A stretch of 64,000 bases of DNA from Escherichia coli (lineage in GTDB: Bacteria; Pseudomonadota; Gammaproteobacteria; Enterobacterales; Enterobacteriaceae). Where the stretch lies: assembly GCF_036507355.1 (NCBI RefSeq), contig NZ_AP027877.1, one strand, 5' to 3'. The notes beneath the pieces are model-generated. The model searched no databases. It worked only from the letters and a program-made list of their open reading frames with translations, and was not told the origin of the DNA. Below, one piece after another: positions 42,096-47,372 of the stretch (position 1 is the stretch's first letter; each line of letters opens with the position of its first letter). The translations under genes were made by a program, and so were the position numbers.

Positions 42096-43949
42096 ATGAG
42101 ACGATTTCTGACGACGCTGATGATACTCCTGGTCGTGCTGGTGGCCGGGTTATCTGCGTTAGTGTTGCTGGTGAATCCGAATGATTTCCGCGACTATATG
42201 GTCAAGCAAGTTGCTGCACGTAGCGGTTATCAATTGCAGCTCGACGGGCCACTGCGTTGGCACGTCTGGCCGCAACTTAGTATCCTCTCCGGGCGAATGT
42301 CTCTCACCGCCCAGGGCGCGAGCCAGCCACTGGTTCGCGCCGACAACATGCGCCTGGACGTGGCGCTTTTACCACTACTGAGTCATCAACTGAGCGTTAA
42401 GCAGGTGATGCTAAAAGGGGCAGTGATCCAACTGACGCCGCAGACGGAAGCGGTGCGCAGTGAAGACGCTCCGGTTGCACCGCGCGACAATACCTTGCCG
42501 GATCTGTCAGACGATCGCGGATGGTCGTTTGATATATCCAGTCTTAAGGTGGCGGACAGCGTTCTGGTGTTCCAGCATGAAGATGACGAGCAGGTGACAA
42601 TCCGCAATATCCGCCTGCAAATGGAACAAGATCCCCAACATCGTGGCTCATTTGAGTTCTCCGGGCGGGTTAATCGCGATCAGCGCGATCTCACGATATC
42701 CCTTAACGGTACGGTGGATGCTTCTGATTATCCGCATGATTTAACGGCTGCTATTGAACAAATTAACTGGCAGTTGCAGGGTGCCGATTTACCAAAACAA
42801 GGTATTCAGGGGCAGGGGAGTTTCCAGGCCCAGTGGCAGGAGTCACATAAACGCCTTTCATTTAACCAAATCAGCTTGACCGCCAATGACAGTACGCTGA
42901 GCGGGCAAGCACAGGTTACGCTGACAGAGAAACCGGAATGGCAGCTGAGGCTGCAATTCCCGCAACTGAATCTTGACAACCTCATCCCGCTTAATGAAAC
43001 AGCGAATGGTGAAAACGGTGCCGCGCAGCAGGGGCAGAGCCAATCAACGTTGCCGCGCCCGGTCATTTCTTCGCGTATTGATGAACCGGCCTATCAGGGA
43101 CTGCAAGGCTTTACGGCTGATATTTTGTTGCAGGCCAGTAACGTGCGCTGGCGCGGAATGAATTTTACAGATGTTGCCACGCAAATGACCAACAAGTCGG
43201 GTTTGCTGGAAATTACTCAACTGCAGGGCAAACTTAACGGTGGACAGGTTTCACTGCCGGGCACGCTGGACGCGACATCAATAAATCCGCGGATAAACTT
43301 CCAGCCACGGCTGGAAAACGTTGAGATTGGTACCATTCTGAAGGCGTTTAACTATCCGATTTCGTTGACCGGAAAAATGTCACTGGCTGGTGATTTCTCC
43401 GGTGCTGACATAGATGCCGACGCATTCCGCCACAACTGGCAAGGACAGGCACATGTCGAAATGACCGACACGCGCATGGAAGGGATGAACTTCCAGCAGA
43501 TGATTCAGCAAGCGGTAGAACGTAATGGTGGTGATGTGAAGGCCGCTGAAAACTTGGATAACGTGACGCGTCTTGACCGCTTTACCACCGATTTGACGTT
43601 GAAGGATGGCGTCGTGACGTTAAACGACATGCAAGGTCAATCGCCTGTGCTGGCGTTGACAGGGGAAGGCATGTTGAATCTGGCAGATCAAACCTGCGAC
43701 ACCCAGTTTGATATTCGGGTCGTGGGTGGCTGGAACGGGGAAAGCAAACTGATTGATTTCCTCAAAGAAACGCCAGTACCGCTGCGGGTTTATGGCAACT
43801 GGCAGCAACTCAATTACAGTCTGCAAGTGGATCAGTTACTGCGCAAACATCTACAGGACGAAGCGAAACGTCGCCTGAATGACTGGGCCGAGCGGAATAA
43901 AGATTCCCGCAATGGCAAAGATGTGAAGAAGTTGCTGGAGAAGATGTAG
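42096..43949 (+). CDS. asmA: outer-membrane assembly protein AsmA
   Basis: 617-aa ORF with N-terminal TM anchor. Confidence 0.9.
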   Translation: MRRFLTTLMILLVVLVAGLSALVLLVNPNDFRDYMVKQVAARSGYQLQLDGPLRWHVWPQLSILSGRMSLTAQGASQPLVRADNMRLDVALLPLLSHQLSVKQVMLKGAVIQLTPQTEAVRSEDAPVAPRDNTLPDLSDDRGWSFDISSLKVADSVLVFQHEDDEQVTIRNIRLQMEQDPQHRGSFEFSGRVNRDQRDLTISLNGTVDASDYPHDLTAAIEQINWQLQGADLPKQGIQGQGSFQAQWQESHKRLSFNQISLTANDSTLSGQAQVTLTEKPEWQLRLQFPQLNLDNLIPLNETANGENGAAQQGQSQSTLPRPVISSRIDEPAYQGLQGFTADILLQASNVRWRGMNFTDVATQMTNKSGLLEITQLQGKLNGGQVSLPGTLDATSINPRINFQPRLENVEIGTILKAFNYPISLTGKMSLAGDFSGADIDADAFRHNWQGQAHVEMTDTRMEGMNFQQMIQQAVERNGGDVKAAENLDNVTRLDRFTTDLTLKDGVVTLNDMQGQSPVLALTGEGMLNLADQTCDTQFDIRVVGGWNGESKLIDFLKETPVPLRVYGNWQQLNYSLQVDQLLRKHLQDEAKRRLNDWAERNKDSRNGKDVKKLLEKM

Positions 43950-43956
43950 GTTACCA

Positions 43957-44035
43957 GGTGACCTGTCCTGTAGGCCTGATAAGACGCGTAAAGCGTCGCA
44001 TCAGGCGTTCGCGGCGGCACCATTATATTCTGAAT
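43957..44035. repeat. REP/BIME element downstream of asmA
   Basis: cctgtaggcctgataagacgcg...cgtcgcatcaggcg REP consensus. Confidence 0.7.
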
Positions 44036-44199
44036 ATGTAAGATCGAAGGCTGTTCCGTTCACTTGATGTTCCTCACTACTATGGAACGCTCAAGCCGGT
44101 GAACGTGCCAGGGTGGCTCAATCGCCACCACCCTGGCAACCCGGGCTCCCGGCGGTAAATCGCCGCTGGCGCGGTTCCCTCATCTTATTCCTTTCGGCT

Positions 44200-45620
44200 A
44201 TCGGGTACGGGCGCGAGGTAACATATATGGACGCTCCCGGAATGCAATGCTTTCTTCAGTTATGTAATAAAACGGGTAGGTGCAGCCATATATCCGGTTT
44301 CTGATGGGATTTTTATCCCGAACCATGATGAAATCCGCCAGGCAGGTACCAATCATCCTCTACGGGCTAACTTGCCCTTGTTACCTCTCGGTGTATCCTG
44401 CCTGCGGTCTTACCTGTTTTGCCATCTTCTGAAGTCACCTGCACCTACCAGGACGTTAACTTTTTTTCAGCACCTCGTCAGATTGACTGACCTTGTGTCA
44501 GGCGAGCTGCCGAGGTTGATATTCAGTATTGTGTGACAACATTGACCACATGCTCCTCGCTGTTTTTGCCGCCATGGCGACAACAGCTACATTGTAGTGC
44601 TTCCGCTCAAGGAGTCCCTGAAGCCAGGAATTCTCCTCAACCGCGCCGTTTCGGTTGACCCAGGCGGTAAGTGCGCGTGCGCCGTGAACCAGCAGGTATC
44701 GGAAATATCCATCTCCACGTTTGCTGATCCCTCCCAGTTGCTGTTTCCCGCCGCTGGAATGTTCCTTTGGTGTCAGCCCCAGCCATGAAGCGAACTGCTT
44801 TGCGGTACTGAATTGTCGGGCATTACCCACTGCTGCTACCACATAAGTGGCCGTTAGCATGCCAACCCCCGGGATTTTGGCCATTCTCTGGCAGGCTTCC
44901 TGCGTTCTATACCAGGAGGCCAGAGCTTCTTCTACCTGTTTAACTTGTTCTTCAAGTTCCCGGATATGTTTAGACTGTCTGTAGATGCTGGTTCTGACAA
45001 AGGGAGATAAACCATTTTCGCTATCCTCCAGAATGGCTGGCAGCTCACGGGTTAAATGGCTTTGTCCGGCCGCAATCGTAATACCAAACTCAGCAAGTGT
45101 GGCTCTTAAACTATTGGCACAGGCAATCCGCTCACGGATAAGTATTCCCCGTTCAGTGTGTAACGCTAAAACGGCCTGCTGCTCTTCGGTTTTTATCTGA
45201 ACAAAACGCATATTCGGACGGGTTACCGCTTCGCAGATTGCTTCAGCATCTGCTGCATCCGTCTTGTTCGTTTTCACATAAGGCTTCACATACTGCGGAG
45301 GTATGAGTTTTACCTCATGACCATAGCGGGTGAATAATCGCGCAAAATAATGACTGGATGAGCAGGCTTCCATGCCAATCAGACAAGGTTCCAGTTGAAT
45401 CACAAACTGAACAAACTTAGCCCGGGTGAGCTTTTTACGCAAAATAGTATGGCCTTCATGATCGACACCATGAAGCTGAAAAACGTTCTTTGCCAGGTCG
45501 ATACCAAGAGTTGATACTTTCATGTGGACGCTCCTAATTTTTCAGGACGTATTGCAACGATCCAGTCTGGTACTTTGATACCGTAAAATCTGGAGCGTCC
45601 ATCTCATTATCCCTTCCCTG
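44200..45620 (-). mobile_element. IS110-family (IS1111-like) insertion sequence; ends approximate
   Basis: Single DEDD-type transposase ORF, no obvious long terminal IRs; 11-bp inverted copies of ATGGACGCTCC at 44227-44237 and 45588-45598; long 3' non-coding region. Confidence 0.6.
44498..45523 (-). CDS. IS110-family transposase/recombinase (DEDD type)
   Basis: 341-aa ORF MKVSTLGIDLAKNVFQLHG...MEACSSSHYFAR...DAADAEAICEA...RPNMRFVQIKT..., pattern typical of IS110/IS1111 transposases. Confidence 0.85.
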   Translation of the reverse strand: MKVSTLGIDLAKNVFQLHGVDHEGHTILRKKLTRAKFVQFVIQLEPCLIGMEACSSSHYFARLFTRYGHEVKLIPPQYVKPYVKTNKTDAADAEAICEAVTRPNMRFVQIKTEEQQAVLALHTERGILIRERIACANSLRATLAEFGITIAAGQSHLTRELPAILEDSENGLSPFVRTSIYRQSKHIRELEEQVKQVEEALASWYRTQEACQRMAKIPGVGMLTATYVVAAVGNARQFSTAKQFASWLGLTPKEHSSGGKQQLGGISKRGDGYFRYLLVHGARALTAWVNRNGAVEENSWLQGLLERKHYNVAVVAMAAKTARSMWSMLSHNTEYQPRQLA

Positions 45621-45788
45621 TAAAACGCGCCCTCAGCCCACATCCATGTGGGCTGCCCCGGCCTACAGGAAACGATTCGGCGATTTACAGCCGGACCCCC
45701 CCCGCTGTAATGTCCATGTACCACAGACAACGCTTCATTGCTGAAGTTATAAGGCGTTACGCAGCATCGGGTAAAATGACCGATACCA

Positions 45789-47372
45789 TCACACCTCGTA
45801 CTCCATCTCGCCATCCTTACGCAGCGGTATAATCTGCACCTTCTGCACGCGATGGCTTTCTACCTGCAACGTTTTAAGCAAATAATCCCCCACCTGAACT
45901 TCTTCGCCAGGTTTTGGAATACGCTGCAAATACTCCATCAACAGCCCGGCAATGGTGTGATATTCACGTTTTTCATCCAGCGGCAGCGGCACATATTGCA
46001 CCAGATCCTCCAGCGGCATATGACCATTCGCCGTCCAGGAACCGTCCGCATTCTTCTGAATATCATGTCGGGCGTCGATCTCTTCCACTTCGTTCGGTAA
46101 GTTACCGGCAATGGTTTCAGTGACGTCACTTAATGTCACAATCCCTTCCACCGAGCCAAACTCATCCACCACAAAAGCAAAGTGCGTGCGGGCATTACGG
46201 AACTGCTCCAGGGCAGGTAACAACGGCAAGGTTTCCGGGAACACCAGCGGCTGGCGAATCAACACCCGCAGGTTGAGCGGTTCGCCGCGCAGTGATTGTT
46301 GTAACAGGTCGATAACGTGAACAACACCGAGCAAATCTTCTGCGTCATCACCGTCGGTAACCACCAGCCGCGTATGCTGATTTCGCTCCAGCAACTGGCG
46401 GATTTCTTCTTCCGGCGCGTTGAGATCGATATGCTCAATATCGTGGCGCGACGTCATAATGCTGCTGACGGTACGCTGGTTAAGATTAAGTACCCGCTCA
46501 ATCATCCGCCGTTCCTGCGGATTAAAGATCTGCTGGTTACCATGATCCACCAGCATGGACGCGGTTTCGGCGTCCAGTTCCGCATCTTCTTTTTGCCCGC
46601 TAAGCAGGCGCATTACCGCTTCGGTAGTCCGCTGGCGCAGCGTCTGGTTAGCGGAAAGAAAACGTCGCCGGTTAAAGATAGCCAACTGATTGAGCGCCTC
46701 GATCATCACCGAGAAACCAATGGCAGCGTACAGGTAGCCTTTCGGAATGACGAAGCCGAAACCTTCTGCCACCAGGCTAAAGCCAATCATCAACAGGAAG
46801 CTTAAGCAGAGAATAACGATGGTCGGGTGACTGTTAACAAATTGCGTTAACGGCTTGCTGGCCATCAACATCAGGCTGATAGCGATAACCACGGCGGCCA
46901 TCATGACCAGTAAATGGTCGACCATCCCGACGGCGGTAATCACTGAGTCGAGTGAGAAGATGGCGTCCAGTACCACAATTTGTGTCACCACCCCCCAGAA
47001 CTTCGCACCTTTGCGTTGTGTGGGATTATTGCTGTCTTTCCCTTCCAGCCGTTCGTTCAGCTCCATCGTGGCTTTGAACAACAGGAAGAAACCACCAAAC
47101 AGCATGATTAAGTCGCGGGCGCTAAAGGTAAACGAGCGGAAGCTGAACAGCGGTTGAGTCAGGGTGACCAGCCAGGAGATTGACGCCAGCAGTAACAGGC
47201 GCATTAACATCGCCAGCAGCAGCCCGGTAACCCGTGCGCGGTCGCGCTGCTTCGGCGGTAGTTTTTCGGCGAGGATGGCAATAAAGACCAGGTTATCAAT
47301 GCCGAGGACCAGTTCGATCACAATCAGCGTGATTAACCCGGCCCAGATAGACGGATCGGCAATCCATTCCAT
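45789..47372 (-). CDS. yegH: TerC-family membrane protein with CBS and CorC/HlyC domains (YegH)
   Basis: Start set at [13 protein letters not shown] (527 aa); integral membrane N-terminus plus CBS pair. Confidence 0.85.

What the first reader, a model, noticed from the sequence alone, without database searches (positions are those of the whole stretch)
43950..45788. IS110/IS1111-family element next to a REP site, with a long structured 3' non-coding region (candidate bridge RNA)
The asmA-yegH convergent interval is about 1.8 kb and contains one DEDD-type IS110-family transposase gene. Downstream of its stop there are about 270-450 bp of non-coding sequence rich in hairpins (for example GCCAGGGTGG...CCACCCTGGC at about 44115-44145), and the motif ATGGACGCTCC recurs in inverted orientation at 44227 and 45588 and again at 45527. 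IS110-family recombinases are known to use an element-encoded structured RNA (bridge RNA) to recognise target and donor; in the IS1111 subgroup it is encoded 3' of the recombinase, which fits this layout. The element also sits beside a REP sequence, a known target type for some family members.
Basis: partly seen in the sequence, partly recalled or inferred. Interest (0 to 1): 0.6.

Follow-up and report, generated by a model that had tools for sequence, protein, structure and literature searches.

The report
ISEc81 insertion sequence with bridge RNA

Summary
The asmA-yegH interval holds one intact IS1111-type insertion sequence on the minus strand. Comparison with empty sites puts it at 44224-45609 (1386 bp). 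It has 11-bp subterminal inverted repeats, a 341-aa DEDD transposase gene (44498-45523) and a 273-nt 3' non-coding region.

A covariance model built from 10 relatives hits the window once, at 44271-44453(-). It also finds the same RNA just 3' of the transposase gene in about 69 distant relatives. There, 87.5% of cells are paired against 32-48% in slid controls, and 31 of 34 pairs show compensatory changes.

One internal loop carries GAGGUAACA, complementary to the 9 bp right of the insertion point, and AGGAUG, which spans the cut. A second loop matches the element's ends. Across 51 loci, loop-flank matching beat all 10,000 permutations. IS5075 served as a positive control.

- The element is not in the REP, which lies 214 bp away. 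It sits at the apex of a different ~200-bp low-copy repeat.
- The cited hairpin at about 44115-44145 is host DNA.
- The non-coding region is 273 nt, not up to 450.

The element is ISEc81 or a close variant, already listed by Durrant et al. 2024 with a right-end bridge RNA. Expression was not tested.

The parts
44224..45609 (-). Insertion sequence proper, 1386 bp (ISEc81 or a close variant). On its own strand it reads 5'-TAATGAG[ATGGACGCTCC]...[GGAGCGTCCAT]ATA-3'.
   Evidence: Empty-site comparison. Identical junctions at three other loci. Boundaries carry a 1-2 bp ambiguity because A|T is shared by target and ends.
45610..45614 (-). Five extra bases, AGGGA on the element's strand, between the left flank and the left end. 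This is a tandem copy of the target's AGGGA (45615-45619).
   Evidence: Absent from all other copies examined. Of 5426 complete genomes only strain G4/9 has it.
44498..45523 (-). Transposase/recombinase gene, 341 aa. It has a DEDD RuvC-like domain and a Transposase_20 domain with GLTPKEHSSG (the GL-P----SG motif).
   Evidence: Pfam PF01548 and PF02371. NCBIfam NF033542 'IS110 family RNA-guided transposase' at 355.7 bits against a cut-off of 140. D9, E52, D89, D92, S257 and G258 are invariant among 13 relatives. PDB IS621 transposase 8wt6 matches at E 2.9e-7.
45592..45602 (-). Left subterminal inverted repeat ATGGACGCTCC, preceded by the 7-bp left-end extension TAATGAG (45603-45609).
   Evidence: Sequence. 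Conserved in relatives.
44227..44237 (-). Right subterminal inverted repeat GGAGCGTCCAT, followed by the 3-bp right-end extension ATA (44224-44226).
   Evidence: Sequence. Conserved in relatives.
45524..45534 (-). Third copy of the repeat (GGAGCGTCCAC), covering the Shine-Dalgarno sequence and abutting the ATG. It pairs with the left repeat to form a long hairpin in any transcript that enters from outside.
   Evidence: Predicted fold of the left end. The hairpin is kept with covarying sequence in distant relatives. Its regulatory role is inferred.
44271..44453 (-). Bridge RNA (seekRNA) gene, 183 nt.
   Evidence: The only hit of model R1 in the 64-kb window, 199.3 bits. Covariation. Fold z-score -3.36.
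44439..44449 (-). Closing helix, 5' strand GGUAGGUGCAG. It pairs with CUGCACCUACC at 44275-44285.
   Evidence: Perfect 11-bp complement in the window. Paired in 73-75% of cells across relatives, with compensatory changes in 9 of 11 pairs in A4.
44335..44407 (-). Target-binding arm. Basal stem CCGCAGGCAGG (44397-44407) pairs with CCUGCCUGGCGG (44335-44346). Inner 3-bp stem ACC/GGU. Distal hairpin GGGC-AAGUUA-GCCC (44364-44377).
   Evidence: Paired in 99-100% of cells, with 8 pairs changed on both sides, among 10 close relatives. Paired in 97-98% across 80 sequences.
44379..44387 (-). Right-target guide GAGGUAACA, on the 5' side of the internal loop. [quoted passage not shown]
   Evidence: Longest match between the non-coding region and the target. 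The same loop position matches the right flank in relatives.
44354..44359 (-). Left-target guide AGGAUG, on the 3' side of the loop. It has the same sense as the top strand across the cut: GGA|TG here, AAGGA|TG at variant sites.
44326..44332 (-). Right-donor guide UUCAUCA. It pairs with the left-end extension TAATGAG, with one A.C and one G.U.
   Evidence: Covaries with the left-end extension in relatives: UCCAUCA with TAATGGA, UUCAUUA with TGATGAA.
44286..44293 (-). Left-donor guide AUAUAUGG, with the same sense as the right end CCATATA|T.
   Evidence: Covaries with the 3-bp right-end extension in relatives (GUA, CUA, GCA, AGA, ATA).
44242..44247 (-). TTGCAT, the candidate -35 of a promoter completed only in the excised circle: TTGCAT-N16-TA|TAAT across the right-end/left-end junction.
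   Evidence: Read from the sequence. TTG at this distance and TA+TAAT at the ends are conserved in relatives. No circle was observed here, so this is inferred.
44215..44223 (-). Right half of the target, TGTTACCTC on the element's strand. This is host DNA.
   Evidence: Empty site reads ...ACAGGGA|TGTTACCTC.... Identical at all four loci.
45615..45619 (-). Left half of the target, AGGGA on the element's strand. This is host DNA.
   Evidence: Empty site.

Best explanation
The interval contains an intact copy of the IS1111-type insertion sequence ISEc81, or a close variant.

Its 3' non-coding region encodes a ~183-nt bridge RNA (seekRNA) that the element's DEDD recombinase most likely uses to choose where to insert.

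The RNA is closed by a long helix and has two arms:
- In the target arm, one side of an internal loop (GAGGUAACA) pairs with the top strand just right of the cut (TGTTACCTC). The other side (AGGAUG) pairs with the bottom strand across the cut (GGA|TG).
- In the donor arm, UUCAUCA pairs with the 7-bp left-end extension. AUAUAUGG matches the right-end tip.

The element therefore inserts, without a long duplication, at ...GGGA|TGTTACCTC..., which is the apex of a ~200-bp low-copy intergenic repeat.

What is shown and what is inferred:
- Shown here: the element's ends, the conserved and covarying structure, and the loop-to-flank and loop-to-end matching.
- Inferred from work on ISEc11 and IS621: that the RNA is made, that it binds the recombinase, that the element moves through a circle, and that the circle junction forms a promoter (TTGCAT-N16-TATAAT).
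For: - Ends: defined by an empty allele and by identical junctions at asmA-yegH, dusC-yohP, ybaP-copA and lysO/aqpZ-linked sites.
- Activity: copies 99.2-99.9% identical occur in 179 of 5426 complete E. coli genomes, 1-4 per genome.
- Protein: Pfam DEDD_Tnp_IS110 plus Transposase_20. NF033542 at 355.7 bits.
- RNA structure: model R1 hits the window once (199 bits) and finds a full-length match just 3' of the transposase gene in about 69 loci with only 45-54% protein identity. On that alignment 87.5% of cells pair against 32-48% when partners are slid, 31 of 34 pairs have compensatory changes, and 0 of 500 shuffles reach the observed values.
- Close relatives: the target-arm stems are 99-100% paired, with 8 pairs changed on both sides.
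- Guides: there is a 9-nt exact complement to the right flank. By my own arithmetic, a given 9-mer is expected about 0.001 times in 273 nt. Over 51 non-redundant loci, cognate loop-flank runs average 7.1 nt against 3.2 for non-cognate (right) and 4.9 against 2.6 (left), with 0 of 10,000 permutations as high.
- Natural retargeting: two ISEch3 copies in one Dickeya genome differ in the loop (UUCGCCGCG against UUCGCGGCG) exactly as their flanks differ (CGCGGCGAA against CGCCGCGAA).
- Positive control: in IS5075/IS4321 the same loop positions read AAAACGGAA and UAUUUUC. These match TTCCGTTTT and TATT|TTC in the flanks of the two copies fetched, which I recognise as the Tn21-type inverted repeat these elements are reported to target (Partridge and Hall 2003, ref. 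10 in PMC11208160).
- Literature: 3' non-coding RNAs of IS1111 elements are required for transposition and co-purify with the transposase (PMC11187229). ISEc81 is listed as 'RE, IS1111' in the bridge-RNA table of PMC11208160.
Against: - No expression, RNA-protein binding or circle junction data exist for this element, and none could be obtained here.
- Rfam 15 has no matching family.
- No promoter-like site was found on the element's strand inside the integrated copy, so the source of the RNA in the integrated state is unknown.
- The left-target guide matches only 5 nt at this locus (6 nt at variant sites).
- The donor pairing contains a conserved A.C mismatch and G.U pairs, so the donor-arm register is less certain than the target-arm register.
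- The outer helix and the first four pairs of the target-arm basal stem are only 73-77% paired across distant relatives.
- The alignment used for the wide covariation count was fitted to the model's structure, which favours it.
Confidence: 0.88

Rival explanations
1. The RNA guides target choice only (a short seekRNA made of the target arm). The element's ends are recognised by the protein through the subterminal inverted repeats, and the apparent donor-arm matches are not functional pairings.
For: - The predominant RNA co-purifying with the ISEc11, ISPa11 and ISKpn4 transposases was 82-96 nt and was described only as carrying target matches (PMC11187229).
- The inverted repeats are strongly conserved.
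- The donor pairings proposed here include an A.C mismatch and wobbles.
Against: - The 3-nt right-end extension varies among relatives (GTA, CTA, GCA, AGA, ATA) and the loop varies with it.
- The left-end extension and its loop also co-vary: TAATGGA with UCCAUCA, TAATGAG with UUCAUCA or CUCAUCA.
- The donor-arm helix GGUU/AACC and its hairpin are kept by compensatory change (hairpin pairs counted, 94% paired; the GGUU/AACC helix read off the alignment).
- A longer 154-nt RNA was also bound by TnpEc11.
- Durrant et al. report donor-complementary loops in IS1111 bridge RNAs.
Confidence: 0.08
2. The conserved 3' region is a DNA-level feature, such as transposase-binding sites or an end-proximal enhancer, and not an RNA.
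For: It lies next to the right end, and no transcript has been shown for this element. No internal promoter was found on the element's strand.
Against: - Conservation is of base-pairing, not of sequence. Many pairs show 4-6 different Watson-Crick or wobble types, including G-U, which is meaningful only in RNA.
- The loops track flanking host DNA, which a protein-binding site would not do.
- There is direct RNA evidence for related elements (PMC11187229).
Confidence: 0.02
3. This particular copy is a stranded, immobile remnant. The 5 extra bases at the left junction disrupt the flank-plus-end geometry needed for excision.
For: The extra AGGGA is private to this strain and G4/9. Siddiquee et al. 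found that both target-derived flanks are needed for circle formation.
Against: - The five bases directly preceding the left end are still AGGGA, so the sequence read by the left-target guide is unchanged.
- The ORF, both ends and the RNA are intact, and the element is 99.9% identical to copies at other loci.
Confidence: 0.1
4. The region encodes a small protein. The window has ORFs of 50-63 aa overlapping it.
For: ORFs at 44280-44432(+), 44372-44536(+), 44198-44356(-) and 44113-44304(+).
Against: No reading frame stays open across the relatives, and 38 of 50 alignment gaps are single bases. The substitution pattern is that of paired RNA.
Confidence: 0.01

Closest known systems
ISEc81 (ISfinder entry; listed in Durrant et al. 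2024, Supplementary Table, as group IS1111 with bridge RNA in the right end)
   Same: The transposase is identical at 330 of the 336 residues printed in that table. Same host species, same IS1111 layout.
   Different: The ISfinder nucleotide entry could not be read here, so whether this is ISEc81 itself or an isoform is not settled. This copy carries 5 extra bases at its left junction. I found no paper that describes ISEc81's guides or its target; only resistance-genomics papers mention it.
ISEc11 and its seekRNA (Siddiquee et al. 2024, PMC11187229)
   Same: IS1111 type, with subterminal inverted repeats, a 7-bp left-end extension, no added bases on insertion and a long 3' non-coding region. 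The top-strand match lies 5' of the bottom-strand match in the RNA, and the two matches overlap at the cut.
   Different: It falls in a different transposase cluster in Durrant's table and has a different target (GTGAAAATACTG). ISEc11 has experimental proof; this element has none.
IS621 bridge RNA (Durrant et al. 2024; Hiraizumi et al. 2024)
   Same: The RNA has two internal loops, each with one guide for the bottom strand on the left and one for the top strand on the right. The pairings overlap at the crossover. The recombinase has the same two domains.
   Different: - IS621 encodes the RNA in the left end, 5' of the gene; here it is 3'.
- The order of left and right guides within a loop is reversed here.
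- IS621 has only 2-3-bp subterminal repeats.
- IS621 targets REP (ATCAGGCCTAC) with a CT core. This element does not target REP, and its target (TG) and donor (TA) share only the T at the crossover.
- The proteins are only distantly related (PDB match E 2.9e-7, over the C-terminal domain only).
[quoted passage not shown]
   Same: Same transposase cluster in Durrant's table. The RNA model built here hits them at 33-35 bits, and their loops match their known target at the same positions. The left-end extension TAATGAG is the same.
   Different: About 40% protein identity. They are plasmid- and transposon-borne and target a transposon end rather than a chromosomal repeat.
ISPpu9 / Ssr9 small RNA of Pseudomonas putida (PMC12288879)
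   Same: An IS110-family element with a small RNA gene downstream of the transposase gene. It inserts into an intergenic repeat.
   Different: It targets REP sequences. Orphan copies of its RNA gene exist. I took this from the abstract only.

Membership tests
IS110 family, IS1111 group | N-terminal DEDD (RuvC-like) catalytic domain | tested here: met
   PF01548 at E 1e-14. D9, E52, D89 and D92 are invariant in 13 relatives.
IS110 family, IS1111 group | C-terminal Transposase_20 domain with the GL-P----S(t)G motif | tested here: met
   PF02371 at E 4.4e-24. GLTPKEHSSG is at residues 249-258, with S257 and G258 invariant. The motif definition is from PMC11187229.
IS110 family, IS1111 group | Curated NCBIfam model for the family, above its cut-off | tested here: met
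   NF033542 'IS110 family RNA-guided transposase' at 355.7 bits against a cut-off of 140.
IS110 family, IS1111 group | Subterminal inverted repeats of 7-17 bp, set in from the ends (which distinguishes IS1111 from IS110 proper) | tested here: met
   An 11-bp ATGGACGCTCC lies 7 bp from the left end and 3 bp from the right end.
IS110 family, IS1111 group | Long non-coding region 3' of the gene and a short left end | tested here: met
   273 nt on the 3' side against 86 nt on the 5' side.
IS110 family, IS1111 group | Insertion at one specific sequence, in one orientation, without a multi-base target duplication | tested here: met
   Same position and orientation in the same repeat at four loci. 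Only the A|T at the junction is shared.
IS110 family, IS1111 group | Circular intermediate whose junction forms a promoter | not testable with these tools
   The joined ends would read TTGCAT-N16-TATAAT. The TTG and the TA+TAAT are conserved. No circle was observed.
Bridge RNA / seekRNA | Element-encoded structured RNA with stems conserved by compensatory change | tested here: met
   87.5% of cells paired against at most 48% in slid controls, and 31 of 34 pairs with changes on both sides.
Bridge RNA / seekRNA | Loop segments complementary to both strands of the target, overlapping at the cut | tested here: met
   GAGGUAACA pairs with TGTTACCTC, and AGGAUG matches GGA|TG. Family-wide permutation test gave 0 of 10,000.
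Bridge RNA / seekRNA | Loop segments complementary to the donor (the element's ends) | tested here: met
   UUCAUCA pairs with TAATGAG, and AUAUAUGG matches CCATATA|T. Both co-vary with the ends in relatives. The pairing is imperfect (A.C and G.U), so the exact register is not certain.
Bridge RNA / seekRNA | The RNA is expressed, binds the recombinase and is required for transposition | not testable with these tools
   Shown for ISEc11, ISPa11, ISKpn4, ISPst6 and IS621 in the literature, but not for this element.
Bridge RNA / seekRNA | Match to a curated RNA family | tested here: not met
   No Rfam 15 family matched the region even at E up to 10. This most likely reflects what the library holds.
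ISEc81 (named ISfinder element) | Near-identity to the reference element | tested here: inconclusive
   330 of 336 residues match the ISEc81 protein as printed, with columns removed, in Durrant's table.
REP-targeting IS110-family elements (IS621, ISPa11, ISPpu9/10) | Insertion inside a REP sequence | tested here: not met
   The REP at 43966-44010 is intact and 214 bp from the element. It is identical in the empty allele. The target lies in a different repeat.

The most novel reading that the evidence does not exclude
All four guide segments of this clade's RNA read UG (left guides) or CA (right guides) at the crossover, which fits the target (T-G). The element's own joined ends read T-A there. 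Donor pairing therefore carries a conserved A.C mismatch and G.T wobbles. In addition, the two left guides match the integrated junctions (flank|TAAT, end|TG) about as well as, or better than, the empty site and the circle. This built-in asymmetry could be how this IS1111 clade uses one RNA for both excision and insertion, or how it biases the direction of the reaction. I did not find this described for IS1111 elements in the papers read.
Probability: 0.2. Interest if true: 0.45.

Novelty: already known. Interest (0 to 1): 0.2.

Why it matters
For the genome scan this is a correct call of a known kind of element. RNA-guided IS110/IS1111 recombinases were described in 2024. NCBI already names this protein family 'IS110 family RNA-guided transposase', and ISEc81 is in the published bridge-RNA table.

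What this work adds is local detail:
- exact ends of the element;
- an explicit assignment of the four guides;
- the natural target, GGGA|TGTTACCTC, at the apex of a ~200-bp low-copy E. coli repeat;
- a covariance model that recovers the RNA across a wide IS1111 clade.

That detail could help annotate such elements, and could help anyone choosing natural IS1111 systems for reprogramming. It does not change what is known about the mechanism.

Tried and rejected
- **Rfam.** A scan of 43500-46200 at E up to 10 gave only a REP-derived naRNA4 match and a chance microRNA match.
- **Genome-collection scan.** Close relatives had to be fetched one protein at a time. The distant set then proved useful for covariation.
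- **RNAalifold.** On the raw MAFFT alignment it paired the donor guide with the right-end repeat, which is an artefact of including the element's tip. It also missed the donor hairpin, which MAFFT had misaligned. A hand-set structure and model-based realignment fixed this.
- **Automatic detection of inverted repeats.** This failed for the window and about 20 loci because it picked up host palindromes. Those loci were fixed by hand or dropped.
- **Promoter scan.** It found nothing on the element's strand.
- **REP as target.** Rejected: the REP is 214 bp away and intact.
- **Small-protein reading.** Rejected.
Full report
**What is in the sequence.** The window is E. coli chromosome. asmA ends at 43949 on the plus strand and yegH ends at 45789 on the minus strand. 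Between them lies one long ORF, 44498-45523 on the minus strand, 341 aa. It has the two domains of IS110-family recombinases, DEDD_Tnp_IS110 and Transposase_20. It scores 355.7 bits against NCBIfam NF033542, 'IS110 family RNA-guided transposase', whose cut-off is 140. It shows distant sequence similarity to the solved IS621 transposase. The motif ATGGACGCTCC is at 44227-44237, its inverse is at 45592-45602, and a one-mismatch third copy is at 45524-45534.

**Exact ends.**
- Most E. coli genomes have an empty asmA-yegH interval. Aligning the window to one of them (strain G6/7, L001) gives flanks that meet at ...GCGCGAGGTAACAT|CCCTGTAAAACG....
- Copies of the element at asmA-yegH in other strains, and at dusC-yohP and ybaP-copA, have identical junctions.
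- Read on the element's own (minus) strand, the target is ...TTTTACAGGGA|TGTTACCTCGCGCC...
- The element is 5'-TAATGAG-ATGGACGCTCC...GGAGCGTCCAT-ATA-3', 1386 bp, window 44224-45609. It has a 7-bp left-end extension and a 3-bp right-end extension beyond 11-bp subterminal inverted repeats. That is the IS1111 layout described by Siddiquee et al. (PMC11187229).
- The A|T at the junction is shared by target and ends, so the boundary can be shifted by a base or two.
- The 3' non-coding region is 273 nt and the left end is 86 nt.
- The window's copy has five extra bases (AGGGA, 45610-45614) between flank and left end. Among 5426 complete genomes only strain G4/9, which is 99.9% identical to the window here, shares them.

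- The hairpin GCCAGGGTGG...CCACCCTGGC (44108-44137) is real, but it is host DNA and is present in the empty allele.
- The REP at 43966-44010 is 214 bp from the element and intact, so this is not a REP insertion.
- The element sits at the apex of a different repeat: an imperfect palindrome of about 200 bp, found in 5425 of 5426 E. coli genomes at a median of 3 places per genome. I could not put a name to this repeat.

**Is there a conserved RNA?**
- Relatives with 60-88% transposase identity were fetched. They include ISYen1/IS1667 of Yersinia, ISEch3 of Dickeya, and elements of Serratia, Pectobacterium, Jejubacter and Citrobacter. They keep the same inverted repeat.
- Their 3' regions align into conserved blocks separated by short hypervariable stretches.
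- A structure set by hand on ten of them has a closing helix, a target arm (11-bp basal stem, 3-bp inner stem, distal hairpin) and a donor hairpin. The target-arm stems pair in 99-100% of cells, with eight pairs changed on both sides. Overall pairing is 86% against 34-45% when partners are slid.
- A covariance model built from this alignment (R1) hits the 64-kb window once, at 44271-44453(-), with 199 bits.
- The model also finds a full-length match on the same strand, a few tens of bases 3' of the transposase gene, in about 69 loci whose proteins are only 45-54% identical.
- On that 80-sequence alignment, 87.5% of cells pair against 32-48% in slid controls. 31 of 34 pairs have compensatory changes, many pairs show four to six pair types, and no shuffle reaches the observed values. 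That alignment was fitted to the model, which favours the structure, but the margin over the controls is large.
- The window's RNA folds better than all 200 shuffles (z -3.36).
- No reading frame is conserved across the region, and most alignment gaps are single bases.

**Do the loops read the target?**
- In the window, the 5' side of the target-arm internal loop contains GAGGUAACA. This is the exact complement of TGTTACCTC, the nine bases immediately right of the cut, and it is the longest match between the non-coding region and the target.
- The 3' side contains AGGAUG, which has the same sense as the top strand across the cut: GGA|TG here, and AAGGA|TG at the variant sites in IAI39 and AR Bank #0349.
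- The same two loop positions match the flanks of every close relative, although the flanks differ.
- Two ISEch3 copies in one Dickeya genome differ in the loop (UUCGCCGCG against UUCGCGGCG) exactly as their right flanks differ (CGCGGCGAA against CGCCGCGAA).
- Over 51 non-redundant loci, the exact complementary run between a loop and its own right flank averages 7.1 nt, against 3.2 nt for other loci's flanks. For the left guide the figures are 4.9 against 2.6. None of 10,000 permutations reached either mean.
- As a positive control, the model finds the RNA in IS5075 and IS4321. Their loops read AAAACGGAA and UAUUUUC, matching TTCCGTTTT and TATT|TTC in the flanks of the copies fetched. I recognise those flanks as the Tn21-type inverted repeat that these elements are reported to target (target per Partridge and Hall 2003, ref. 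10 in PMC11208160).

**Do other loops read the element's ends?**
- After the target arm comes UUCAUCA. It can pair with the left-end extension TAATGAG, with one A.C and one G.U.
- In distant relatives the extension is TAATGGA and the loop is UCCAUCA. In ISEch3 they are TGATGAA and UUCAUUA.
- A short helix follows (GGUU/AACC here; GGAC/GUCC and GGCC/GGCC elsewhere), and then a hairpin kept by compensatory change.
- Next comes GGAUAUAUGG, which has the same sense as the right-end tip CCATATA|T. Where relatives end in GTA, CTA, GCA or AGA, the loop reads GGAUGUAUGG, GGAUCUAUGG, GGAUGCAUGG or GGAUAGAUGG.
- In Durrant's terms, the four segments are a right-target guide, a left-target guide, a right-donor guide and a left-donor guide. 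The right guide lies 5' of the left guide in each arm. That is the reverse of IS621, as Siddiquee et al. reported for IS1111 elements.
- The donor register is less certain than the target register because of the mispairs.

**Mechanism, shown and inferred.**
- Shown: intact gene, intact ends, a conserved covarying RNA, and guide-target and guide-end matching. Near-identical copies at several loci in 179 genomes argue for recent activity.
- Inferred from ISEc11 and IS621: the RNA is produced and bound by the recombinase, and the element excises as a circle.
- Also inferred: the joined ends make a promoter. Here that would be TTGCAT (44242-44247), 16 nt of spacer, then TA from the right end plus TAAT from the left end. 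The TTG and the TA/TAAT are conserved in relatives.
- Also inferred: the RNA then aligns the circle junction with GGGA|TGTTACCTC for strand exchange.
- No promoter-like site was found on the element's strand in the integrated copy. yegH lies directly upstream on the same strand, so read-through transcription is a possible source of RNA. This is speculation.

**Comparison with what is known.** The transposase matches the ISEc81 sequence printed in Supplementary Table file 8 of Durrant et al. 2024 at 330 of 336 residues. That table lists ISEc81 as group IS1111 with its bridge RNA in the right end. Newer RefSeq annotations of this very gene read 'IS110 family RNA-guided transposase'. The only papers I found that mention ISEc81 are resistance-genomics surveys. 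The guide and target assignments here seem not to be published, but they are a routine application of a known principle.

**The least ordinary observation.** All four guides read UG/CA at the crossover. This fits the target (TG) but not the element's own joined ends (TA). The left guides also match the integrated junctions at least as well as the substrates. This may bear on how one RNA serves both excision and insertion. I give it a low probability of being a new point.

Noticed in passing
window 45610-45614: Five extra bases (AGGGA on the element's strand) sit between the left flank and the left end, repeating the target's AGGGA in tandem. Only strain G4/9 of 5426 complete genomes shares this. 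It is either a slippage duplication or flank carried along in a previous circle.
   Followed up: partly
window ~44100-44223 and 45615-~45720; L005, L006, L105, L106: The insertion target is the apex of a ~200-bp imperfect-palindromic intergenic repeat. The repeat is present in 5425 of 5426 E. coli genomes at a median of 3 places per genome, including asmA-yegH, dusC-yohP, ybaP-copA and lysO-aqpZ. I could not match it to a named repeat family.
   Followed up: partly
window 44200-44207 and 45768-45775; L002: In many strains (for example MB20 and the K-12 derivative CJ236) 178 bp of the asmA-yegH interval are absent, including the target site. The missing stretch is bounded by the 8-bp direct repeat ATCGGGTA. 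This is either a microhomology deletion or an old insertion with a duplication. Such strains lack the target at this locus.
   Followed up: no
L007, L008 (3106-3553); hits H26-H29: In other E. coli lineages the same asmA-yegH interval carries a RelE/ParE toxin remnant plus a helix-turn-helix antitoxin gene. In some of them it sits next to the insertion sequence.
   Followed up: no
L105 (IAI39), L106 (AR Bank #0349): There are hybrid junctions: lysO-IS-yohP in IAI39 and dusC-IS-aqpZ in AR Bank #0349. Normally dusC neighbours yohP and lysO neighbours aqpZ. This implies a large chromosomal inversion between two oppositely oriented copies of the element. Whether it arose by homologous recombination or by the element's own recombinase is unknown.
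   Followed up: partly
window 45524-45609 (minus strand): The left inverted repeat pairs with a third copy that covers the Shine-Dalgarno sequence just before the ATG. The resulting ~75-nt hairpin is kept, with covarying sequence, in relatives down to 50% protein identity. It would hide the ribosome-binding site in transcripts entering from outside. A transcript starting at the circle-junction promoter would lack the 5' arm.
   Followed up: partly
window 43966-44010: This is a canonical REP sequence (GCCTGATAAGACGCG...CGTCGCATCAGGC), with a sub-threshold Rfam naRNA4 match (33 bits against a gathering score of 59.5). It is unrelated to the insertion.
   Followed up: yes
L074 2678-2870; L030 287-475; L079 1-160: The RNA model gives second hits that are not directly 3' of the transposase gene in that locus. 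In L074 there are two in tandem. These may be orphan or duplicated bridge-RNA genes, or neighbouring element copies. Orphan Ssr9 genes are reported for ISPpu9.
   Followed up: no
L096 vs L098 (Dickeya dadantii 3937): Two copies of ISEch3 in one genome differ by a two-base swap in the right-target guide, and they sit next to flanks that differ by the matching swap. This is a natural example of guide and target changing together.
   Followed up: yes
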